Assembly: GCA_003554375.1 (NCBI GenBank)
Contig: PWGF01000233.1
Location: 1 to 37,053, forward strand
Reading direction: 5' to 3'
Source: Spirochaetaceae bacterium
GTDB taxonomy: Bacteria > Spirochaetota > Spirochaetia > DSM-27196 > SKKC01
Length of the DNA stretch: 37,053 nucleotides
This document shows positions 13 through 18,008 of this stretch, piece by piece. The first letter of the stretch is position 1; the number at the start of each line of letters is the position of its first letter. Made by a program: the position numbers and the translations under genes. The notes under the pieces are model-generated. The model was not told the DNA's origin. It worked only from the letters and a program-made list of their open reading frames with translations, and searched no databases.

Positions 13-1266
13 ATGCCTGTGCAAGTGGGGGAGGCATGCGCCGCGCGGGCGGGGGCAAGGAGGAAGCGCCTTTTGCGCCAAGGAAAGCAGTTCATAACGA
101 TCACCTTCAGTCTCCTGGCCCTGCTCGCAGCGACGGCACCGGCTGAGCGTGTCCACGAGCCGCGCCTCGCCCCGGCTGACCCCATCGCCGAGGGGATGGG
201 ATCAGCAACGGTCGCGCTTCCCGGAGACGGCCGTTCGTTCTTCAGTAACCCTGCAGGATTCGCGTCGCCCGGTGGAGAGTTGACGGTTGCCACAGGGGCG
301 GGGGCGGTGCGAGCTTCGCGCTCCAGCTTGGCCCGAATGCCTACCGATCTGCTGCTTGGGAACATGTCATTAACGCCGGACGGTCTCCCACGCTATTTCG
401 ATTCCGCCGTGTACGAAGGCCGGTTTCGACAGCGGGGCTCTGCAGGGATAGGCTTCGCCGGTAGTGGTCTTGGGCTAGCCCTCTTCGGAGCCGGGGAGAT
501 GACCTTGGAAGGTGGAGATGAGCCGACGGGGAGCTTGCTGAGTGAGCTGACTCTGGTAGGAGGACTCGGTGCTCCGCTGGAAGCGCTTGGGGGGCGATTC
601 CAATTTGGTGTTTCCGCGCGGCCGTTCGTGCGAATCTACGCCCCCGAGCTGTTCGGGGCGGAGATGGAGCGATATGAGGCGCTTCGTGAGGGGGAGTCCG
701 TAGTGGGAGCGTTCGGTGATGTGCCGACACGGAACGGCTTCGGTATAGCACTGGACGCGGGTGCGCTTTTCGAGCGGGGACCGTTCAGTGTTGGCATAGC
801 GGCGTTTGATATCGGTGATACGTCACTCTCGTATGAGGGGCACCCGTTGAGCAGTGTCGCGGACTCGTTTGCCGACGGCCGGCTGCCGGAAGGCGGAACT
901 GATGGTAACGAGCAGTTTGACCCTGATGCCCGCTACTTGGTACCGATGCAGACGCGCCTCGGAGCGGCCTTTTCCTCGGGTGTTGGCGCCTCTCTCTTCG
1001 GGACTGACTTGCTCTCAGTTACGCTAGGCGCGGAGCTTCGTGACTTACATTCTCTATTCTTCAAATCCTATTCTCCGACCGAGAATCTGCACACCGGGCT
1101 TGAACTGGAGCTTGCGCGTTTTGTTTCCGGACGGGCCGGCTACGCCGGAGGTGACTATACGCTCGGCGCTGGAATCCGGCTGGGCATCTTTCGATTGGAC
1201 AGCACGCTCCGTTTTGCCGAAAATGAAAGTGCGGAAGCTACGTTAGGTGCGTCGATTCGATTTTAG
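13..1266 (+). CDS. Outer-membrane beta-barrel protein, FadL/TraF/PorV-like (true start uncertain)
   Basis: Signal-peptide-like hydrophobic stretch, N-terminal GMG-x-A...F-SNPAG motif, amphipathic beta-strand pattern, C-terminal Phe (SIRF). Confidence 0.65.
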   Translation: MPVQVGEACAARAGARRKRLLRQGKQFITITFSLLALLAATAPAERVHEPRLAPADPIAEGMGSATVALPGDGRSFFSNPAGFASPGGELTVATGAGAVRASRSSLARMPTDLLLGNMSLTPDGLPRYFDSAVYEGRFRQRGSAGIGFAGSGLGLALFGAGEMTLEGGDEPTGSLLSELTLVGGLGAPLEALGGRFQFGVSARPFVRIYAPELFGAEMERYEALREGESVVGAFGDVPTRNGFGIALDAGALFERGPFSVGIAAFDIGDTSLSYEGHPLSSVADSFADGRLPEGGTDGNEQFDPDARYLVPMQTRLGAAFSSGVGASLFGTDLLSVTLGAELRDLHSLFFKSYSPTENLHTGLELELARFVSGRAGYAGGDYTLGAGIRLGIFRLDSTLRFAENESAEATLGASIRF

Positions 1267-3576: not shown

Positions 3577-3649
3577 GGGCCGCTAGCTCAGGTGGTAGAG
3601 CAACGCCCTTTTAAGGCGTGGGTCGATGGTTCGAATCCATCGCGGCTCA
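3577..3649 (+). tRNA. tRNA-Lys(TTT), CCA not encoded
   Basis: Acceptor GGGCCGC/GCGGCTC+A, D arm GCTCAGGTGGTAGAGC, anticodon arm ACGCC-CTTTTAA-GGCGT, T arm GATGG-TTCGAAT-CCATC. Confidence 0.97.
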
Positions 3650-6590: not shown

Positions 6591-8411
6591 TCACGGTACG
6601 AGCGCGCCGGCCTGTGCAATGACTCCGCCCAGGAGAAATGCCGTGAGAACCGTCAGGACAAGTAACGCGATCGCAGCGCGCAGGCCGAGCTCTCTGGCCA
6701 AAGTGGCTACCACGGCAATGCACGGCACGTAGAAAAGTCCGACTGTGGCGCCCACGAAAGTCTGAAGCGTCGTGATCTCCATGTCCAGGAGCGGAAGCAC
6801 GGTGAGCTCCCGCCGCACGACGCCGAGTAGCAGCGGCGTCGCAGCCTCCTCCGGGAGACGAAGCCAGCCGGTCACGATGGGTGAGAGAAGCGCGCCGACC
6901 CGAGTCAGGATTCGGGTTTCGTAGAGGACCGCCGCGACGCCGACAGCCGCGACCATCGGGAGGGCACCGTCGACGAGGAAGTGCCGGACTCTTGCCAGAA
7001 GCTTCCGGCCCAGAACGCGCGGCTGTGGCACCAGGAGCTCCGGGATCTCCAGGATGAGTTCCGAGCGGCGGCCGGGAAGGAGTGCGTCCATCGCGAGACC
7101 TGCGACGGCGATGACGGCGAAGGAGAGACCGAAGAGCGCGACGACAAGCAGTATGCTCCGCTCGGCAAGCAGCGCAAAGATAGCGCCGGTTTGGGCAATG
7201 CATGGGACGGCAAGCGATATGAGGGTCGCCACGATGGCGCGTTCTCTGCCGGATCCCATGGCGCGCGTCGAGAGAATGCCCGGAATCGCGCATCCGTACC
7301 CAAGCAGGAGCGAGATGACATGTGACCCCCGCAATCCGATCTTACCCAGAAGCCCGTCGAGGAGAATTGCCAGTCGCGGAAGGTATCCGGAGTCCTCGAG
7401 GAGAGCCAGCACGAAGTAGAAGGAGAGTACGTATGGCAGCACCAGGGTAAACGGCCACTCGATGCCTTTGATGAGGAAGCCGTACTCGCCGATGAGAACG
7501 TCACGGGCAATCCCGGCCGGGACGAGTGACGCGACCCCTTCGCTCAAGGCCGGGAAGAGGTATCCTCGAGCTATAGGGAGGAGGAATGCCTGTCGAACCC
7601 CCATCCCGATGCCCACGATTGCCCCGAAGCTCACCGCAAGCACCCCGAAGGCAATCAGGAGTCCCGGCCACGGGTGCACCAGGGCGTCGCTCTGCGCTGG
7701 GTAGGATGCGGTCCGATCCCGCGGGTGGCCCGCCGGAGGCGCAGGTGCGGCCGGATTCCGCCCTTCGAGGTCCTGGATCTCCTCGAAGTGATCGGGGCAG
7801 TTGGAGCGCTCGGAGACGCATTCCTGTGCGATCTCTTCCGCGTGACGCCAGTAATCGCCTGTGAACGGTTCGGGGACTCTCGGGTGACTCAAAGTATCGG
7901 CAGCCGCAGCCTCCAATCGGTCCAAGCCCCACCCCGTGGGAGCGGCAGTGGGGATCACCGGTACGCCGAGGCGCTTCGCCAGAGTCTCCGAATCGATGTG
8001 TTTCCCCTTAGCGCCGGCAATGTCGCTTCGGTTGAGCGCGACCACCGTAGGCTGCCCCGCGGGAAGAATTTCGAGAATGAGGTGTATGCTACTATCCAGG
8101 TTGACCGCGTCGGCAACGATGAGAACGAGGTCGGCCGGCTCGCGGAGCATGGTGGTGGTGACTCGCTCGGCCTCGTTTGTTGCCGAAAGCGAATACGACC
8201 CGGGTAGGTCGATCAGGGATATCCGGTGGTCGCCGAGCCTGCCCGTGCCCTGAGCAACGTCCACCGTGGTCCCCGGGTAGTTCGCCACCAAGGTCCCGAG
8301 TCCGGTGAGCCGGTTAAAAATGACGCTCTTGCCGACGTTCGGCGGTCCGGCAAGAAGCACGCGGCGCGTGCCTCTGCAATGGGCTGTTCGAGAAGCTTTG
8401 TGGCATCTCAT
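6591..8411 (-). CDS. feoB: Ferrous iron transporter FeoB
   Basis: G1 GPPNVGKS, NYPGTTV, DLPG.YSL, LEDSGYLPR, gate motifs LGYGC.IP and FYVPC.A; multiple transmembrane segments. Confidence 0.92.
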   Translation of the reverse strand: MRCHKASRTAHCRGTRRVLLAGPPNVGKSVIFNRLTGLGTLVANYPGTTVDVAQGTGRLGDHRISLIDLPGSYSLSATNEAERVTTTMLREPADLVLIVADAVNLDSSIHLILEILPAGQPTVVALNRSDIAGAKGKHIDSETLAKRLGVPVIPTAAPTGWGLDRLEAAAADTLSHPRVPEPFTGDYWRHAEEIAQECVSERSNCPDHFEEIQDLEGRNPAAPAPPAGHPRDRTASYPAQSDALVHPWPGLLIAFGVLAVSFGAIVGIGMGVRQAFLLPIARGYLFPALSEGVASLVPAGIARDVLIGEYGFLIKGIEWPFTLVLPYVLSFYFVLALLEDSGYLPRLAILLDGLLGKIGLRGSHVISLLLGYGCAIPGILSTRAMGSGRERAIVATLISLAVPCIAQTGAIFALLAERSILLVVALFGLSFAVIAVAGLAMDALLPGRRSELILEIPELLVPQPRVLGRKLLARVRHFLVDGALPMVAAVGVAAVLYETRILTRVGALLSPIVTGWLRLPEEAATPLLLGVVRRELTVLPLLDMEITTLQTFVGATVGLFYVPCIAVVATLARELGLRAAIALLVLTVLTAFLLGGVIAQAGALVP

Positions 8412-8414
8412 GCG

Positions 8415-10193
8415 CTAGCTCTCGGCGGGCGTGACCCGGATTGCCGCGGCTACGGAACGCTGAAGAGCAACCTGACGCTCACCTACGGAGCACACGATCG
8501 GACCGCCCCATGGCTGCGCGGCTACGACCGTACACGGTTTTCCCGGCCGGAACCCAAGGGCTGCAAGCTGCGGGAGGTCAGGAGCATCTGCGATGGTTCC
8601 GCGTTGTTTTGGAGCAAGGTCGCAGAGGGCGCAGGCGAGCCCCCCTTCGCCGGCGCGGGGGCAGGGCTCGGAGGGCGGAGAGGCTTTGCGGCCTGCCCCG
8701 TCTGCATGCGCCGGTACTTCCGGGTTGCCTGAGTGCCGGCTGCCGGGGCGGGCCGGATTCAGCGAGCGAGCACCGTCTTTTGTTACCATCACGAGCTCCT
8801 TTCCTGCCGGCAGTTTCCGGCTCCTGCCGGGATCGAGAATCCCGAGATTGGCGGGTGTTAACCGCTCGTAGACACGCGACAACTCCCCTCTTGGGTTCCG
8901 ATACAGTATACGTGTTCCGGGTTCCGCTGCCGCCACGATGTGACGAAGCACTGCCGCCTTTGGAACGACGTGGAGCGCAACTATCACCGCAGCGAATCCG
9001 ACGCACGGGAAGCGCAGGGCATCACGGCAGATTATCCGCACGACCCCGCGTACGGAACGCCTCCGAACGACCTTGCGGGCTCGCCGGGCAGCGGCGCGAT
9101 CTCGTTCGAGGACGGTAACATAGCATCCTCCTGCGGCAAGCGCAATCGCAGTCGCAGGAAACGGGCCTCCCCCGACCATCAACACGTGATCTCCCGGCCG
9201 GACCCGCGCGGCGGATCGTTCCCGGTCGATCAGCGTCGCGTATGCCGTGCGGGCATAGAGCGCCCCCATCCACGGAATAGCCGCAGCCAAATGTTCCAGA
9301 GCGCCAACTCCGCGACAGACAAGGCGAGGTAGACGGGTTCGTTCAAAGCGGAAGTACCCCATTAGTGAACGTCCAACATGCCTCGTGGGCGTGTAAGCTC
9401 TGAGCGCAGGCGCGTGCCCGGATCTGTTGCGCTTTGCGGAGCCGACGTAAGCGTCGGCATTAAGGCCGGAGCTCGGGGTAAAACCGGCCCGACTCCCCGC
9501 AGCCTGAGATCGGCGGGCCTGAGATCGGCGGGCGTGACTATGGTGGGTCTGAGAATGGTCGGTCCGCCGAGAATGATTGGCCTGCTCGGTCGCGGTCGTA
9601 CCGGCCAGATGCAGCTCCGAGCGGTCGAACGTCGGCATCAGGTGGCGAACCGAGCGGCAGGGCGTATTGCGCTCCTCGAAGCGGCCGTACTCAGCTTCCA
9701 GGCTCCGCCGCGGCAGGCGAAACACCATTCGCCCTCCGACCCCATCGGCACCGTCCCCATCGGCATGCCCGGCCTGGACGCCCTTTACGAGAGAACGAGC
9801 TACGTTTCGTCGGATTGCGTCTTTCGGCTTTGCCTGGAGTGCAATCAGGGCGGCGTCCGCTGTAGGGAGATCGTCGGCTGCCGCATCCGCGCGTATTACC
9901 GTGAGCTGGTCCTGGAGCCCAAGGCGAATGATCAGCTCCCGCGCGTGTGTAACCGCTTCCGGATCCCGATCGATTGCAACCACCTGCACGCGAGCCATCT
10001 GTGCGCAGAGAATGGCGCTGAAGGGTACGGAGCCGCACCCCACGTTCAGGAGCCTGGTTCCGGGAACAAGCGCGAGGAGCCGGAGCTCCCGCCTGACGAG
10101 ACGCCGGTACGGCGCCGCGTAGAGCGCAAAGCCATACCGGCTTGTAGCAATTCGACGTTCCATTCTGCCAACCGCGTTGCAGATCACACCCAT
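8415..10193 (-). CDS. Fusion of two nicotianamine-synthase-like class I SAM domains with a C-terminal FeoA domain
   Basis: ATG at 10193 after GAGAAAGGA. Domain 1 NVGCGSVPFSAI...IALQAKPK; domain 2 MVGGGPFPATAI...VALHVVPK...RILYRNPRG; last ~75 aa LAALGFRPG...AQPWGGPIVCSVGERQVALQRSVAAAIRV is FeoA-like. Ends 3 nt before feoB. Confidence 0.75.
   Translation of the reverse strand: MGVICNAVGRMERRIATSRYGFALYAAPYRRLVRRELRLLALVPGTRLLNVGCGSVPFSAILCAQMARVQVVAIDRDPEAVTHARELIIRLGLQDQLTVIRADAAADDLPTADAALIALQAKPKDAIRRNVARSLVKGVQAGHADGDGADGVGGRMVFRLPRRSLEAEYGRFEERNTPCRSVRHLMPTFDRSELHLAGTTATEQANHSRRTDHSQTHHSHARRSQARRSQAAGSRAGFTPSSGLNADAYVGSAKRNRSGHAPALRAYTPTRHVGRSLMGYFRFERTRLPRLVCRGVGALEHLAAAIPWMGALYARTAYATLIDRERSAARVRPGDHVLMVGGGPFPATAIALAAGGCYVTVLERDRAAARRARKVVRRRSVRGVVRIICRDALRFPCVGFAAVIVALHVVPKAAVLRHIVAAAEPGTRILYRNPRGELSRVYERLTPANLGILDPGRSRKLPAGKELVMVTKDGARSLNPARPGSRHSGNPEVPAHADGAGRKASPPSEPCPRAGEGGLACALCDLAPKQRGTIADAPDLPQLAALGFRPGKPCTVVAAQPWGGPIVCSVGERQVALQRSVAAAIRVTPAES
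9502..9531. repeat. Perfect 15-bp tandem duplication in the inter-domain linker
   Basis: GCCTGAGATCGGCGG x2, encoding the RRSQA repeat. Confidence 0.85.
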
Positions 10194-10720
10194 CCAATCG
10201 TCCTTTCTCGTTCGTTGTAGCTCTTCCGGCTCGGCCCTTCGGGCGAGCGGCCTGTCCCGTCGGGCGAGCGGCCCGGCCCTTCGGACGCGAGGCGGCGCGG
10301 GAGCAGGATCGAAGCATGCGAAACGGCCGCGCGTGCCGGCACAGGACAGTTGCCCGGCGAACCTCTGCGGGCTCGATTCCGCCCTCTCGGCAAGCCGTCT
10401 GCGCTGCAGTACTCCGCAAGCGGGCAAGAGCGACTTGCAGGGCACTTCTCGCCTGCGACCTCCTTGTTTGCCGGAGCGCCAATCTTTGCCGGGGCGCCAA
10501 CGCTCGTACATTGAGGAGAGTCGAGAAGCCGTAGACCCGCAGGCCCGTGATGGAGAAACGCGAACGCAGCCGCCGCAGCCTTCCAGAATGCGTAGACGAG
10601 CGCGCCGGCAACGCGCGCGCATCCCCATACCACGCGGAGACCTCGCCGAGTGTGTTGTGCGCTCGGCGTCACGGAAGCCGAGATTGCGCTGGGACGCTGG
10701 GCAAGGCCCGCGAAACTCAC
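10184..10720 (-). CDS. Hypothetical membrane protein with Cys cluster, first gene of the feo operon
   Basis: GTG at 10720 after AAGGAG; one hydrophobic segment; C-x5-C-P-x4-C (CPASRSCPLAEYC); stop overlaps the start of the next gene. Confidence 0.5.
   Translation of the reverse strand: MSFAGLAQRPSAISASVTPSAQHTRRGLRVVWGCARVAGALVYAFWKAAAAAFAFLHHGPAGLRLLDSPQCTSVGAPAKIGAPANKEVAGEKCPASRSCPLAEYCSADGLPRGRNRARRGSPGNCPVPARAAVSHASILLPRRLASEGPGRSPDGTGRSPEGPSRKSYNERERTIGWV
10232..10285. repeat. Imperfect 21-bp tandem repeat (about 2.5 units)
   Basis: GGCCCTTCGGGCGAGCGGCCT / GTCCCGTCGGGCGAGCGGCCC / GGCCCTTCGG; encodes EGPGRSP-DGTGRSP-EGPS. Confidence 0.75.
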
Positions 10721-10802
10721 CGCTTTCTCCTTCTCGAGTAACCCAAGTGGCACCGAGACCCCTCGAAAGCCGGCGTTCCCGAGGAGTTTCGTGGAGCACA
10801 CT

Positions 10803-10849
10803 AGGTTGGTCCCGCCCAACTTTCTACTATATGGCGCATGGATTGTCAA
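10803..10849 (-). promoter_or_regulatory. feo operon promoter with DtxR/IdeR-like operator
   Basis: Minus strand TTGACA (10849-10844)-N17-TAGAAA, overlapped and followed by the palindrome AAGTTGG-GCGGGA-CCAACCT (10822-10803). Confidence 0.55.
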
Positions 10850-11075
10850 TGATGATCTGTTGAGAACGATAAGTCAGTGTCCTTCCATTAAATAGCTCGA
10901 ATGGTATTGATAGAAGGCGATACTCAAACGACAATAGCGTTCTCTTCACTCCAAGGCATTCTTTGCGTTCAACGCGCTTGTTCGTCCCCCTCTTTAGCGA
11001 GCTTCGAACTTACGATACCATGCGGGGCGCTCCGAAGCACGCGTAGATTCCGAGGTGGTAGAGAGGCGGAGGCTC

Positions 11076-11822
11076 ATGGCGGAGACAATGGGTACAAAAG
11101 CAGCCTTGCCCGGCAGCAGAGGCCGGGTGGTCATTGATACCAGCATATTCGTGAATCCGGACTCGATGAAATACTTCGGCGAAGGCGTAGGCCCCGCCGT
11201 GGAACGGTTCCTCGAGATCTGCCGCGAGCTCGGGCTCGAGATATACGTACCGCTCTCGGTGTTTCGAGAGCTTGCGAGCTTCCTCCCGCCATATACGCTC
11301 AAAACACTGCGCAGCCGTGCCGTGGTACGTGAGCCGGACCTCTACCATACGCATGTTCCCGCGGTGACGTTTCACACCTTCGTGCGGGAGCTGCGCCACC
11401 GCGTGAACAAAGGGCTTCAGATCGCCGAGCAGGCAATTAAGAGCGCCAACAATCCGGAGAATATCCGGTGGGTCAGACAGCACTATCGTGAGGCGCTGCG
11501 GACCGGAATCGTGGACAGCGTGGAGGATCTGGAAGTCGTGCTGCTGGCGCGCGAGGTGGACGGGATCGTCCTTACTGCGGATCAGGGGATTGCGTCGATG
11601 GCGGGCTGTTTTGGGATCGAGGTTTTTGCCGCGGAGGAATTCCTCGACTATTCCGAAGACAGCCGGACGCAGCATGGCGGGCGCGTTGATGGCGGTTCCT
11701 CAGAGGACGGCGGTTCCTCAGAGGACGGGGGTGCCTCAGAGGGTGCCTGCGCCCCAGAGGACCGTGGCACCTTAGGGGGTGACGGCACCTTAGAAAGTGA
11801 CAGCGCGTCAGAGGATGAGTGA
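11076..11822 (+). CDS. RNA-free ribonuclease P (HARP, Aq880/UPF0278, 'RNA ligase partner' PIN family)
   Basis: VIDTSIFVNP, ELRHRVNKGLQIAE, YREALRTGIVDSVEDLEVVLLA and TADQG match HARP motifs including the catalytic Asp residues. Start 11076 or 11088. Confidence 0.92.
   Translation: MAETMGTKAALPGSRGRVVIDTSIFVNPDSMKYFGEGVGPAVERFLEICRELGLEIYVPLSVFRELASFLPPYTLKTLRSRAVVREPDLYHTHVPAVTFHTFVRELRHRVNKGLQIAEQAIKSANNPENIRWVRQHYREALRTGIVDSVEDLEVVLLAREVDGIVLTADQGIASMAGCFGIEVFAAEEFLDYSEDSRTQHGGRVDGGSSEDGGSSEDGGASEGACAPEDRGTLGGDGTLESDSASEDE
11691..11798 (+). repeat. Degenerate 18-bp tandem repeat (6 units) in the HARP tail
   Basis: GGCGGTTCCTCAGAGGAC x2 plus four diverged copies, encoding GGSSED GGSSED GGASEG ACAPED RGTLGG DGTLES. 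Confidence 0.8.
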
Positions 11823-11823
11823 G

Positions 11824-12909
11824 ATGGAGCACGATCGAGATCGCGACTTCGAGCAGTTCACATTCCAGGGGAAAGCGTATCGCCGGTACAAGAAGGACCG
11901 GGAATCGCCTCGGGGGACAATCGAGATCCTGGACCAGGAAGGAGCCGGAGAGCGCAGTATTCCGGGATTCCCCTCCATCAGGCGGGTATACCGTCTGAAG
12001 CAGGGAATCCGCCGCCTTTTCGGGAATAGCCCGTTTCATGCCGAAGAGAAGCTGGACGGGTACAATGTGCGGATATTCCTGCACGACGGGCGTCTTCCGG
12101 CAGCCTCGCGGGGCGGCTTCCTCTGCCCGTTCACCACGGAGTGGGCGGAAATCTGGGGCGAGGACTGTAATCTTCACCGGTTCTTCCGTGACTATCCGGA
12201 TCACGTACTGTGTGGCGAGGTTGTGGGCGATAACCCCTACAACCGGCAGCGGGATCCGGAGCTCTCCGCCGGGGCGCATTTCTTCGTCTTCGAGATTGCC
12301 GCCCCCGACGGACAGTTCCTTCGTCCCGCCGATCGCTACCGTCTCGTGGAGGAGTACGATCTTCCTGCGGTGCCGAACCTCGGCGAGTTCCACGTCCGCC
12401 GTATCGATGCGCTCTACGAGCTGCTCCGGGATCTGAACGAGCGCGGGCGGGAGGGTGTGGTGCTCAAAGATCGCCGTGGGAAACGTCGCCTGAAGTTCGT
12501 CACCCCGACGAGCGACTTGCAGGATATCCGGGATGCTCTGGCGATCGGCTTCGATATGGCGAGCGGATACTTCTTCAACAGATATATGCGTGCGGTCATA
12601 TTCGTTCGCGAGCTGGGGTTGGACGAGGCGGAGTACGCACGCCACATCGGTCAGGCTTTCCTCGACGGTGTCCCGGGTTCCCACGAGTTCTCCGAAGCAA
12701 GCGAGCAGTATCGCATCTACGTGCGTGAGAGGCGCACCTGGGAGGCCCTGTACGAGAGACTTCAGTCGCACGTTCTTCTCAAGGAGGACAACGTCGTACC
12801 GGGCAGTGCTTTCGGACGCGACATGCTTCGGGTTGACTTCCGGCGCGTCTTCCAGCGCAGCTCACACCGTTACCGGCTCATGCTCGGCGGATACCTTCAT
12901 GCCGATTGA
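11824..12909 (+). CDS. ATP-dependent RNA ligase, Pab1020/Rnl3 (archaeal-type) family
   Basis: IPGFPSIRR, motif I EEKLDGYNVR, SRGGFLCPFTT, LCGEVVG.NPY, FFVFEI, REGVVLK, LKFVT. ATG 11824 after GAGGA (alternative 11815), adjoining the HARP stop. Confidence 0.9.
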   Translation: MEHDRDRDFEQFTFQGKAYRRYKKDRESPRGTIEILDQEGAGERSIPGFPSIRRVYRLKQGIRRLFGNSPFHAEEKLDGYNVRIFLHDGRLPAASRGGFLCPFTTEWAEIWGEDCNLHRFFRDYPDHVLCGEVVGDNPYNRQRDPELSAGAHFFVFEIAAPDGQFLRPADRYRLVEEYDLPAVPNLGEFHVRRIDALYELLRDLNERGREGVVLKDRRGKRRLKFVTPTSDLQDIRDALAIGFDMASGYFFNRYMRAVIFVRELGLDEAEYARHIGQAFLDGVPGSHEFSEASEQYRIYVRERRTWEALYERLQSHVLLKEDNVVPGSAFGRDMLRVDFRRVFQRSSHRYRLMLGGYLHAD

Positions 12910-13115
12910 GGCCCGCGGTCGGCGCGGGTGGGCAGCTGCGAAAGCTTCCGAGGTTGTCTTCGCGGCTCCTGCCCCGGTTCGCGCCCGCGGCCCCGCACGC
13001 GGGGCAACCAGCAGAGCTCGCTTCTCGAACTCGAGCCTCCCGACCGTTTCCCCACACGCGGAACCGAGCTTCCGCTTGCGTGCACATGAGACCATCTCGG
13101 GGTACAATCGTCGCC

Positions 13116-14174
13116 ATGAAGCGCTGTGTGAAGGTCTTGTCGGCCGTCATTCTGGGCCTTGTTGTGCTCGGAGCCATTGCGTGCGGAACTTCGCGGTTCC
13201 TTTCGCCTCCGAATGCTGGGCGTGAGCTGGCCCGGGTGTGGGAGGTTCCTCATCCGGCGGTGGTTGCCCACCGGGGCGCTTCGTGGCTTGCGCCGGAATC
13301 AACTGCGCCGGCCTATGAGTTGGCGCGAGATCTGGGTGCGGACTATCTAGAGGCGGATCTTCAGCGTACCCGTGACAGGGTCGTCGTGGCTTTTCACGAC
13401 GAGACGCTCGAGCGCACGACCAACGTGGAGGAGGTCTTCCCCGACCGTTCAACGGATCGAATCGAGACGTTTACCTACGGCGAGCTCATGGAGCTCGATC
13501 ACGGAAGCTGGTTTAACCAGGCATACCCTGAGCGCGCTCGCGATGCTTACGAGGGCCTGGGCGTCGTGACGCTTCGGGAGCTCATTGAAATTGCGGAGGC
13601 GGGACCGAACAACCCCGGCCTCTACCTTGAGACGAAGTCCGCTCAGAACCATCCGGGGATCGAGGAGGACGTCCTCGCGGTACTCGAGGACTTGTGCTGG
13701 TATCCGGAGGGGCCGGAGCTCGCCGGCCCGGACGTCACGGCAAACGCGGCGGTCGGGGCGCCGACGATCGATGTGGCCGCCGGCCGGAGCGGGATCATCT
13801 TCCAGTCATTTCACACCGGTAGCCTCGAGCAGCTTATCGAGCTGGCGCCGGAGATCCCAGCGGTCTATCTCATCAGCGCTGCGATGGCGGAGGAGAACGG
13901 TTTTCGCCGACATGTGAAGACCGCGACCGAGATGGGAGCTCTCGGGGTCGGGCCAGGTGGCCGGCTCGGGCTCCCGTGGAATACGGGGCACGCCCACCGG
14001 GAAGGGCTTTTGGTTCACAACTACACGATAAACCAGCCGTGGCAGATGCGGCTTCTGCGGAGCTTTGGTGCGGACGGAATCTTCACGGACCGGCCGGCGG
14101 TGGCGCTGGAGGTATTCGATCGCGCCGAAGAGATCGACGTCGATGCTATTCTGGATCGGTTGGAGCTAAAATGA
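13116..14174 (+). CDS. glpQ: Glycerophosphodiester phosphodiesterase, probable lipoprotein
   Basis: AHRGAS..APEST, YLEADLQRTRD, FHDETLERTT, GADGIFTD; signal MKRCVK...AIA-C. Confidence 0.88.
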   Translation: MKRCVKVLSAVILGLVVLGAIACGTSRFLSPPNAGRELARVWEVPHPAVVAHRGASWLAPESTAPAYELARDLGADYLEADLQRTRDRVVVAFHDETLERTTNVEEVFPDRSTDRIETFTYGELMELDHGSWFNQAYPERARDAYEGLGVVTLRELIEIAEAGPNNPGLYLETKSAQNHPGIEEDVLAVLEDLCWYPEGPELAGPDVTANAAVGAPTIDVAAGRSGIIFQSFHTGSLEQLIELAPEIPAVYLISAAMAEENGFRRHVKTATEMGALGVGPGGRLGLPWNTGHAHREGLLVHNYTINQPWQMRLLRSFGADGIFTDRPAVALEVFDRAEEIDVDAILDRLELK

Positions 14175-17918: not shown

Positions 17919-17923
17919 CTCTA

Positions 17924-17996
<73 letters not shown>

Positions 17997-18008
17997 ATGT
18001 CTGCTGAG

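What the first reader, a model, noticed from the sequence alone, without database searches (positions are those of the whole stretch)
11076..12909. Protein-only RNase P (HARP) coupled to an archaeal-type RNA ligase in a probable spirochaete
Seen: intact HARP motifs (D-T-S, YREALR, D-S-x-E-D, A-D-x-G); the ligase ATG lies 1 nt after the HARP stop with its SD inside the HARP gene. Known: HARP and Pab1020/Rnl3 ligases co-occur phylogenetically, mostly in archaea and a few bacteria; HARP leaves 5'-phosphate/3'-OH ends, the ends Rnl3 joins or circularises; their joint function is unresolved. Inference: direct operon coupling points to a cut-and-seal pathway (tRNA quality control, RNA circularisation or repair) rather than a simple backup RNase P, probably acquired horizontally.
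Basis: partly seen in the sequence, partly recalled or inferred. Interest (0 to 1): 0.85.

Follow-up and report, generated by a model that had tools for sequence, protein, structure and literature searches.

The report
HARP nuclease–RNA ligase operon, horizontally acquired
A soda-lake spirochaete carries a tightly coupled two-gene operon for a protein-only RNase P homologue and an RNA-circularising ligase that it seems to have picked up from sulfate-reducing bacteria; the gene pairing itself is already published, so this is a new example rather than a new system.

Summary
11076-11822 (+) encodes a HARP (PF08745; TIGR03875 "RNA ligase partner protein"). 11824-12909 (+) encodes an Rnl3/Pab1020-type RNA ligase (TIGR01209). 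The ligase ATG lies 1 nt after the HARP stop, with a GAGG inside the HARP gene.

The HARP-Rnl3 pairing is not new. It is in the TIGRFAM name, in a 2017 PIN classification and in a 2025 mBio paper.

- The pair is foreign to its lineage. HARP was found in 0 of 40 relatives and 2 of 400 other genomes of the phylum. Both genes nest inside Desulfobacterales, apart from another spirochaete HARP clade, and their GC3 matches the host.
- It belongs to a bacterial clade with the ligase co-directional and abutting downstream in 31 of 31 loci, an orientation the mBio paper found in only one bacterium.
- A 48-aa acidic tail built from 18-nt repeats is the longest C-terminal extension among the 80 loci compared.
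- The missing rnpA/rnpB are assembly gaps in a genome 70% complete. Five of 5 tandem-pair genomes tested keep rnpB.

Most likely this is an accessory, co-expressed RNA cut-and-seal module, not the housekeeping RNase P. The function is inferred. Interest is modest.

The parts
10907..10935 (+). Sigma-70-like promoter match (TTGATA-17-GACAAT) upstream of HARP; candidate operon promoter
   Evidence: 9 of 12 matches. It is one of 2 sites found in 10200-13400, against a shuffle mean of 0.6. This is a consensus match only.
11076..11675 (+). HARP core (residues 1-200): PIN_5 metallonuclease domain with an inserted helical hairpin
   Evidence: Family and structure matches. The start codon is supported by alignment A1. 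All 8 active-site residues of AaHARP are kept (D21, T22, S23, D147, S148, E150, D151, D169). The AF2 model gives block pLDDT of 69-96 over residues 11-200, with helices at 96-124 and 127-160.
11676..11822 (+). C-terminal acidic low-complexity tail of HARP (48 aa: 13 G, 8 S, 7 D, 7 E) plus the TGA stop; built from 18-nt tandem repeats
   Evidence: TRF finds 11691-11742 (period 18, 2.9 copies) and 11766-11801 (period 18, 2.0 copies); register copies are. No comparable tail appears in the 20 of 46 homologues aligned; all 46 are 139-225 aa. Residues beyond query position 192 number 2-35 in the 80 loci against 56 here. pLDDT is below 50 for 201-248.
11810..11815 (+). Shine-Dalgarno-like AGAGGA for the ligase, inside the HARP reading frame
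   Evidence: Read directly from the sequence; 9 nt lie between GAGG and the ATG at 11824.
11824..12909 (+). Rnl3/Pab1020-type ATP-dependent RNA ligase (361 aa)
   Evidence: Family and PDB matches. K76, D78 and G79 (which I read, from recall, as the KxDG adenylation motif), E132, G135, E210, G211, K215 and K224 are invariant in 30 sequences. It is the only TIGR01209 match in G000.

Best explanation
A two-gene operon, HARP then Rnl3, was acquired as one unit by a soda- or salt-lake spirochaete from a Desulfobacterales-like donor. The transfer is old enough that its base composition now matches the host.

The two genes are probably transcribed from one promoter upstream of HARP and translated in a coupled way, since the stop and the next start are 1 nt apart. 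HARP is a Mg-dependent PIN_5 endonuclease whose products carry a 5'-phosphate and a 3'-OH. Rnl3 is an ATP-dependent ligase that joins exactly such ends within one RNA molecule.

The most likely function is an accessory RNA trim-and-seal (processing, circularisation or repair) module. It would work alongside the ordinary ribonucleoprotein RNase P, not replace it.

Shown here: the gene identities, intact catalytic residues, tight coupling, conservation of the tandem pair, a foreign origin, and coexistence of rnpB with the pair in other hosts.

Inferred: co-transcription, that the two enzymes act on the same RNA, and what that RNA is.
For: Identity and catalytic residues.
- All 8 AaHARP active-site residues are kept, as are the cleavage-site arginines R94 and R133 (here R107 and R142).
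- The ligase's K76-x-D78-G79, E210-G211-x3-K215 and K224 are invariant.

Coupling.
- The spacer is 1 nt, with an internal SD.
- No promoter-like site lies between the genes. The one weak terminator-like site on the + strand lies inside the ligase, among 3 sites found against a shuffle mean of 2.7.
- In the 31 nearest loci the ligase is always directly downstream on the same strand. The candidate ligase start nearest its aligned N-terminus lies -53 to +51 nt from the HARP stop, in 30 of 31 loci (L008 had none listed), and several are 4-nt overlaps.

Transfer as a unit.
- HARP is over the cut-off in 0 of 40 relatives of the same family or order, and in 2 of 400 other genomes sampled from the phylum.
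- In the HARP tree the window groups with 3 Desulfobacterales MAGs (SH-aLRT 96) inside a clade of 8 rows (the window plus 7 Thermodesulfobacteriota; 95). A separate clade of 11 rows (10 titled Spirochaetota, 1 untitled) has support 100.
- The ligase tree gives the same placement (97, 96, 98).
- An AU test rejects placing the window ligase with that spirochaete clade (p=0.0007).
- The contig itself belongs to the host. The AKR gene downstream is 64-81% identical to its best-matching homologue in 13 of 20 relatives. GC3 of the pair is 0.73 and 0.74, within the 0.63-0.82 range of neighbouring genes, while the three nearest donor loci (L004-L006) give 0.54-0.67.

Accessory role.
- rnpB is present in 5 of 5 genomes tested that carry a tandem pair.
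- rnpB is present in 27 of 27 high-quality relatives.

End chemistry.
- Mass spectrometry of AaHARP products shows 5'-p...OH-3' ends (PMC12217051, passages read).
- Rnl3 circularisation activity is as summarised in PMC12153264.

Recurrence.
- Contigs from two other soda-lake studies hold parts of both genes with 0-4 differences per listed piece.
- One X2 contig bridges the ligase end into the downstream flank (12512-13111).
Against: - No RNA data exist for this locus, so co-transcription is not shown.
- Nothing here tests a shared substrate.
- One of the four tRNA-elbow arginines of AaHARP (R102, whose Ala variant is severely defective in binding) is Gln here (Q115), and R109 is Lys (K122). 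Pre-tRNA recognition may therefore be weakened or changed.
- The mBio paper reports that four recombinant bacterial HARPs did not cleave pre-tRNA, and that ligase or HARP knockouts in archaea had no growth phenotype.
- C/D-box RNAs, the known Rnl3 substrates in archaea, are not expected in bacteria (my own knowledge).
- Neither rnpB nor rnpA was found in G000 itself. Coexistence with the RNP enzyme in this organism is therefore inferred, not seen.
- Synteny with relatives could not define an insertion site. Only the AKR gene matched in 6 relatives' regions.
Confidence: 0.6

Rival explanations
1. Independent functions under one regulator. HARP acts as a backup RNase P and the ligase as a general RNA repair enzyme. 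Both are useful under alkaline or saline stress, they are kept adjacent only for co-regulation, and they share no substrate.
For: The mBio authors keep this option open. The hosts of this locus and of several nearest relatives are salt-lake or soda-lake metagenomes. HARP occurs without a ligase within 4 kb in 34 of 80 loci.
Against: In the 31 nearest loci the arrangement is invariably abutting or overlapping. The HARP and ligase trees are congruent down to sub-clades. That is tighter linkage than co-regulation alone usually keeps across phyla.
Confidence: 0.2
2. A toxin-antidote or conflict module. The PIN-domain HARP acts as an RNA-cutting toxin, and the ligase reverses the damage.
For: HARP falls in the VapC-like PIN group. 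A PIN_3 plus ligase conflict system has been proposed (PMC5499597). The TA idea is raised in the mBio paper. The pair moves horizontally as a unit.
Against: The ligase is 361 aa with no DNA-binding or antitoxin-like domain in Pfam. No mobile-element genes were seen among the 24 window ORFs scanned against Pfam. The ligase knockout in Thermococcus kodakarensis had no growth defect (as cited). AaHARP is a housekeeping enzyme, not a toxin.
Confidence: 0.12
3. HARP is the only RNase P of this organism, as in Aquifex, because the RNA-based enzyme was lost.
For: RF00010 and PF00825 have no match in G000. No blastn match to the rnpB part of any of the five relatives' loci used as queries.
Against: G000 is 70.5% complete in 559 contigs. 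YidC and L34, which I recall as the usual neighbours of rnpA, are also missing. The gene that flanks rnpB in two relatives of the same order sits at the very end of the 2504-nt contig C486, with rnpB expected about 1.1 kb beyond the end. rnpB is present in 27 of 27 high-quality relatives and in 5 of 5 tandem-pair genomes. One elbow-binding arginine is lost.
Confidence: 0.06
4. Artefact. The pair belongs to a Desulfobacterales genome and reached this bin through a chimeric contig or mis-binning.
For: The nearest homologues are all Desulfobacterales. G000 is a fragmented MAG.
Against: GC (0.60-0.61) and GC3 of the pair match the contig. The downstream AKR gene has close homologues in the relatives, and a FlaA-bearing genome is a spirochaete. 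Protein identity to the nearest donor is only 69-75% for HARP and 60-62% for the ligase. An X2 contig from another study joins the ligase end to the same downstream flank. A 3606-nt contig in X1 spans 9699-13304, but X1 may be the source run and is not independent.
Confidence: 0.02

Closest known systems
HARP-Rnl3 gene pair as described by Seshadri & Gopalan, mBio 2025 (PMC12153264); earlier flagged by the name of TIGR03875 and by the PIN_5 row in Matelska et al. 2017 (PMC5499597)
   Same: The same two families sit next to each other, in an organism from a saline or alkaline habitat. The same hypotheses apply (coupled processing and ligation, repair, TA).
   Different: The paper calls the orientation 'typically bidirectional' and counts only 10 tandem cases, one of them bacterial (Desulfonatronospira thiodismutans). 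Here the pair is tandem with a 1-nt spacer. It belongs to a clade in which 31 of 31 loci are tandem, spread over MAGs titled Desulfobacterota, Dadabacteria, Chloroflexota and Spirochaetota. Spirochaetes are not among the bacterial orders named in the main text. Its Table S1 could not be read because supplements are closed.
Aquifex aeolicus HARP (Aq_880; PDB 8kd9, 7f3e, 7og5)
   Same: All 8 active-site residues are kept, as are R94, R125, R129, R133 and N98. The model predicts a PIN core with a helical hairpin.
   Different: R102 is Gln and R109 is Lys. The hairpin loop is 4 residues shorter. There is a 48-aa acidic disordered tail. The host lineage normally has RNA-based RNase P, whereas Aquifex lacks it.
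Pyrococcus abyssi Pab1020 / Rnl3 RNA ligase (PDB 2vug) and the Aquifex homologue 3qwu
   Same: Alignment over nearly the whole length (residues 13-358 against 43-386 of 2vug, E=1.5e-50). The motif I lysine and other nucleotidyltransferase motifs are conserved.
   Different: It is about 30 residues shorter at the N-terminus than Pab1020; the TIGR01209 match starts at model position 31. The Lig_C domain scores 22.2 bits, under its cut-off of 25. The known archaeal substrates (C/D-box RNAs) are not expected in a bacterium.

Membership tests
HARP / PIN_5 (PF08745, TIGR03875) | Profile match above the curated cut-offs | tested here: met
   PF08745 143.7 bits against 27. TIGR03875 143.2 bits against 95.3. 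The NF00334x equivalog models are below their cut-offs (best 157.3 against 241), so it belongs to none of those named subfamilies.
HARP / PIN_5 (PF08745, TIGR03875) | Active-site residues of AaHARP: D7, T8, S9, D138, S139, E141, D142, D160 | tested here: met
   D21, T22, S23, D147, S148, E150, D151 and D169, by alignment to 8kd9. The residue list comes from PMC12217051. All eight are invariant in A1 and A3.
HARP / PIN_5 (PF08745, TIGR03875) | tRNA-elbow contacts N98, R102, R109, R125, R129 and cleavage-site contacts R94, R133 | tested here: inconclusive
   N111, R134, R138, R107 and R142 are kept. R102 is Q115 and R109 is K122. The R102A and R109A variants of AaHARP are severely defective in binding.
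HARP / PIN_5 (PF08745, TIGR03875) | PIN core with an inserted long helical hairpin | tested here: met
   AF2 model, mean pLDDT 75.6, with helices at 96-124 and 127-160 between core strands. No structural superposition was run.
HARP / PIN_5 (PF08745, TIGR03875) | Oligomer (tetramer to dodecamer) that cleaves the pre-tRNA 5' leader | not testable with these tools
   Needs biochemistry. Four bacterial HARPs are reported inactive on pre-tRNA.
Rnl3 / Pab1020 RNA ligase (TIGR01209) | Profile match above the curated cut-off; nucleotidyltransferase domain | tested here: met
   TIGR01209 234.7 bits against 136.9. PF09414 87.7 bits against 27.
Rnl3 / Pab1020 RNA ligase (TIGR01209) | Motif I lysine (KxDG) and the other adenylyltransferase motifs | tested here: met
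   K76, D78, G79, E132, G135, E210, G211, K215 and K224 are invariant in 30 sequences. The motif names are recalled, not taken from a call.
Rnl3 / Pab1020 RNA ligase (TIGR01209) | Pab1020-type C-terminal domain (PF18330) | tested here: inconclusive
   22.2 bits, under the cut-off of 25, but it covers 7-124 of 125 profile positions. The alignment to 2vug runs to residue 386 of 389.
Rnl3 / Pab1020 RNA ligase (TIGR01209) | ATP-dependent circularisation of single-stranded RNA | not testable with these tools
   Needs an enzyme assay.
Conserved HARP-Rnl3 gene pair | Adjacency conserved in other genomes | tested here: met
   46 of 80 loci hold a ligase within the flank. All 31 of L004-L034 are tandem. 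Of L035-L083, 15 of 49 are convergent and 34 of 49 have none, though some flanks are short.
Type II toxin-antitoxin pair | A small antitoxin with a DNA-binding or toxin-neutralising domain next to the PIN toxin | tested here: not met
   The partner is a 361-aa ligase with only ligase domains in Pfam.

The most novel reading that the evidence does not exclude
The co-directional, translationally coupled HARP-then-Rnl3 operon marks a distinct bacterial lineage of the pair. It is present in at least 31 species genomes titled across four or more phyla, plus this one, and it spreads between phyla in anoxic saline, alkaline and subsurface communities. In that lineage HARP, with an altered elbow-reading surface (R102 replaced by Q or H in the Desulfobacterales sub-clade), would no longer serve as RNase P. 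Instead it would work with the ligase as one machine that makes circular or re-sealed RNAs in bacteria, a class of RNA processing so far documented only in archaea. The acidic repeat tail here could be a nucleic-acid-mimicking regulator of that machine.
Probability: 0.15. Interest if true: 0.7.

Novelty: new member of a known kind. Interest (0 to 1): 0.3.

Why it matters
Why many prokaryotes keep a slow protein-only RNase P beside the RNA enzyme is an open question, and the ligase link published in 2025 is the main lead.

This locus adds three things:
- A clean case of the pair moving between phyla as one unit.
- Evidence that the tandem, overlapping arrangement is common in bacterial MAGs, where the 2025 paper counted one bacterial case.
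- Evidence that tandem-pair hosts still have rnpB.

Together these point to a function of the pair other than housekeeping tRNA 5' maturation. They also suggest experimental hosts, namely cultivable carriers of the tandem pair such as Desulfonatronospira thiodismutans. On its own the locus does not reveal that function.

Tried and rejected
- Synteny for an insertion site. I fetched up to 18 kb around the AKR gene's closest homologue in 6 relatives and ran tblastn with 14 window proteins. Only AKR matched, so no empty site could be shown.
- Fused HARP-ligase proteins. A search of longer proteins (435-2000 aa) found none. The tool itself calls this weak evidence.
- Insertion scars. Only short imperfect repeats flank the pair (15 nt, 13 of 15 matching, at 11045-11059 and 12943-12957). 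I take these as chance.
- Rfam over the whole window. Only two tRNAs matched; no RNA family matches near the pair.
- RNA evidence. No RNA holder was listed, so co-transcription could not be tested.
- Parts of the 8-kb stretch are uncovered in X2, X3 and X5, and I draw nothing from that.
- Complex prediction on HARP (A3) and the ligase (A2) gave no verdict (score 0.00, mark 0.32). It is not used as evidence either way.
- ClpB as a taxonomic probe.
- Supplements of PMC12153264 (Table S1, the taxon list) are closed. They may already list spirochaetes or more tandem cases.
- Of PMC12217051 and PMC5499597 I read only the passages returned by 'find'. Of PMC12153264 I read parts 1 and 2 of 3, that is all the main text and the start of the reference list.
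- The claim that no paper treats HARP in spirochaetes rests on (1 paper, a chance co-mention; 0 papers for 'RNA ligase partner protein').
- Rows dropped. L030 and L031 were left out of A2 and A3 because their references contained a stop codon. The trees used HSP translations of all 80 loci for HARP and all 46 loci for the ligase.
- The group tested in the AU test was named after I had seen the tree.
Full report
**What is there**

The window is the whole 37,053-nt contig C499 of a MAG (G000: 4.25 Mb, 559 contigs, 70.5% complete, 0.8% contamination).

An ORF on the + strand runs to a TGA at 11820-11822. Its ATG at 11076 gives a 248-aa protein whose first residues (MAET...) align with the N-termini of its closest homologues. 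One base later, at 11824, an ATG opens a 361-aa ORF that ends at 12909. AGAGGA at 11810-11815 lies inside the first gene, with 9 nt between GAGG and that ATG. An in-frame GTG at 11797 is possible, but the three nearest homologues start at the position of the ATG.

**Gene 1 is a HARP**

- It matches PF08745 (PIN_5) at E=6.4e-42.
- It matches TIGR03875 'RNA ligase partner protein' at 143.2 bits, above the cut-off of 95.3.
- It matches seven PDB sequences named 'RNA-free ribonuclease P' at E 1e-34 to 1e-27.

I aligned it to the Aquifex enzyme in native numbering (8kd9) and read it against the cryo-EM paper (PMC12217051, passages only):
- All eight active-site residues are kept (D21, T22, S23, D147, S148, E150, D151, D169).
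- Both cleavage-site arginines are kept (R107, R142).
- Elbow contacts N111, R134 and R138 are kept.
- AaHARP R102 is Gln here (Q115) and R109 is Lys (K122). The Ala variants at both positions bind pre-tRNA very poorly in that paper.

An AlphaFold2 model from a 30-row alignment shows the core with two long helices (96-124, 127-160). Residues 201-248 have pLDDT below 50.

**Gene 2 is an Rnl3/Pab1020-type ligase**

- It matches TIGR01209 at 234.7 bits, above the cut-off of 136.9.
- It matches PF09414 at E=1.3e-24. Lig_C (PF18330) scores 22.2 bits, just under its cut-off.
- It aligns to Pab1020 (2vug) at E=1.5e-50 over nearly its whole length.
- K76-x-D78-G79, E210-G211-x3-K215 and K224 are invariant in 30 sequences.
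- It is about 30 residues shorter at the N-terminus than the TIGR01209 model.

**The pairing is already known**

- NCBIfam names the HARP family after it.
- Matelska et al. [quoted passage not shown]
- Seshadri and Gopalan 2025 (PMC12153264; main text read) report that 665 of 751 HARP-positive genomes also carry the ligase.
- In that paper the two genes are co-localised in 127 of 164 bacterial cases.
- The paper proposes coupled processing and circularisation, repair, a toxin-antitoxin pair, or removal of 5'-adenylated leaders.
- It also says the orientation is 'typically bidirectional', with only 10 tandem cases, one of them bacterial (Desulfonatronospira thiodismutans).

**Conservation of the tandem form**

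A scan of 185,579 species genomes with an alignment of HARPs found 289 relatives, of which the best 80 loci were kept. I ran tblastn with the window's ligase against them.
- All 31 of the nearest loci (L004-L034; HARP 47-71% identical) have the ligase immediately downstream on the same strand.
- Of the other 49, mostly Nitrospirota, 15 have a convergent ligase.
- The remaining 34 of those 49 have none within the flank, and several of their flanks are short.

In 30 of the 31 tandem loci (L008 had none listed), the candidate ligase start nearest its aligned N-terminus lies between -53 and +51 nt of the HARP stop, often as a 4-nt overlap. By their record titles these 31 are Desulfobacterota, Dadabacteria, Chloroflexota/Anaerolineae and Spirochaetota MAGs, plus a few with less specific titles. 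With the window they form one clade in the HARP tree (32 rows, SH-aLRT 97).

**Origin**

G000 is a spirochaete.
- FlaA gives 3 matches in G000 and none in the 14 control genomes.
- A neighbouring hypothetical protein's only named relative is a Spirochaetaceae MAG.
- G349, labelled 'same phylum', is the same place as L023, whose HARP sits among MAGs titled Spirochaetota.

HARP is rare in the lineage. It was found in 0 of 40 relatives of the same family or order. It was over the cut-off in only 2 of 400 other sampled genomes of the phylum.

The window's copy does not belong to the spirochaete HARP clade.
- The closest proteins (69-75% identity) are from Desulfobacterales or Desulfobacteraceae MAGs.
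- The HARP tree places the window with three of them (96), inside a clade of 8 rows: the window plus 7 Thermodesulfobacteriota (95). The other spirochaete copies form their own 11-row clade (100).
- The ligase tree agrees (97, 96, 98).
- An AU test rejects joining the window ligase to that spirochaete clade (p=0.0007; the group was named after the tree was seen).

So the pair came in as a unit. It is not a chimeric contig.
- GC is flat across the region.
- GC3 of the two genes (0.73, 0.74) matches neighbouring host genes (0.63-0.82) and exceeds the three nearest donor loci, L004-L006 (0.54-0.67).
- The AKR gene downstream is 64-81% identical to its best-matching homologue in 13 of 20 relatives.
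- Contigs from two other soda-lake studies hold parts of both genes with 0-4 differences per listed piece. One of them bridges the ligase end into the same flank.

I could not define the insertion site by synteny.

**Is it the only RNase P?**

Neither rnpB (RF00010) nor rnpA (PF00825) is found in G000. This is best explained by the assembly.
- YidC and L34 are missing too.
- The gene that flanks rnpB in two relatives of the same order lies at the last bases of the 2504-nt contig C486, about 1.1 kb short of where rnpB would be.
- rnpB is present in 27 of 27 high-quality relatives and in 37 of 41 overall.
- rnpB is also present in 5 of 5 genomes tested that carry the tandem pair: two spirochaetes, two Desulfobacterales and 'Bacterium HR37'.

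**A local peculiarity**

The last 48 residues of HARP (11676-11819) are an acidic Gly/Ser/Asp/Glu tail. It is made almost wholly of 18-nt tandem repeats.
- The 46 database homologues are all 139-225 aa long, and none of the 20 I aligned has a comparable tail.
- In the 80 loci the extension beyond the last conserved helix is 2-35 residues, against 56 here.
- The nearest relatives have about 5 nt between the genes.
- So roughly 140 nt of repeats were inserted, yet the HARP frame stays open to within 1 nt of the ligase start. That keeps the coupling.

Whether the tail has a function is unknown. It could be a nucleic-acid mimic, a regulator, or neutral.

**Mechanism**

The most likely reading (0.6) is an accessory, co-expressed RNA trim-and-seal module. 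HARP makes 5'-P and 3'-OH ends, shown by mass spectrometry for AaHARP. Rnl3 joins such ends. The substrates are unknown. C/D-box RNAs, the archaeal substrates, are not expected in bacteria, and the Q115 change makes strict tRNA-elbow reading uncertain.

The rivals are:
- independent stress functions (0.2);
- a toxin-antidote pair (0.12);
- sole RNase P (0.06);
- an artefact (0.02).

Complex prediction gave no verdict and is not used.

**Verdict**

The finding is a new member of a known, recently published kind. It adds modest but real information: the breadth of the tandem clade, transfer between phyla, rnpB coexistence, and the acidic tail. Interest is 0.3.

Noticed in passing
window 6594-10799 (-): FeoB (6594-8411) is followed upstream by a long ORF holding FeoA and two nicotianamine-synthase-like or methyltransferase-like stretches. 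This may be a metallophore plus ferrous-iron uptake cluster. The 794-aa ORF is probably several genes or partly non-coding.
   Followed up: no
window 10227-10293: A 21-nt tandem repeat (3 copies) lies in the region upstream of HARP. A contig of run X3 differs here: it skips 54 nt and has 12 other letters. The repeat may vary between populations.
   Followed up: no
G000 contig C486, 2086-2504: The contig ends inside the gene that lies about 1.1 kb from rnpB in relatives G011 and G024. This is a concrete place to extend the assembly to look for rnpB.
   Followed up: partly
window 11045-11059 and 12943-12957: An imperfect 15-nt direct repeat (13 of 15 matching) flanks the HARP-ligase pair on both sides. 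It is probably chance, but it sits where an insertion scar would be.
   Followed up: no
L031:3254-4318 and L030:1103-1702: In one Spirochaetes MAG the reference L031:3254-4318 (tblastn ligase coordinates) translated with one stop codon; whether the gene is broken was not examined. In one Anaerolineae MAG the HARP and ligase frames overlap by about 53 nt.
   Followed up: no
L035 (record titled Candidatus Micrarchaeota archaeon): Its HARP and ligase branch as sister to the whole bacterial tandem clade, but its ligase is convergent. The branches are long, so the placement is unsure.
   Followed up: no
window 3577-3649 (+) and 17923-17997 (-): tRNA-Lys(ttt) and tRNA-Met(cat) genes are the only Rfam matches in the window.
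   Followed up: no
window 13-1263 (+): This is a lineage-restricted hypothetical protein with no Pfam match. Only 3 database relatives were found. One is 100% identical and lies on a 73-kb contig of another assembly.
   Followed up: no
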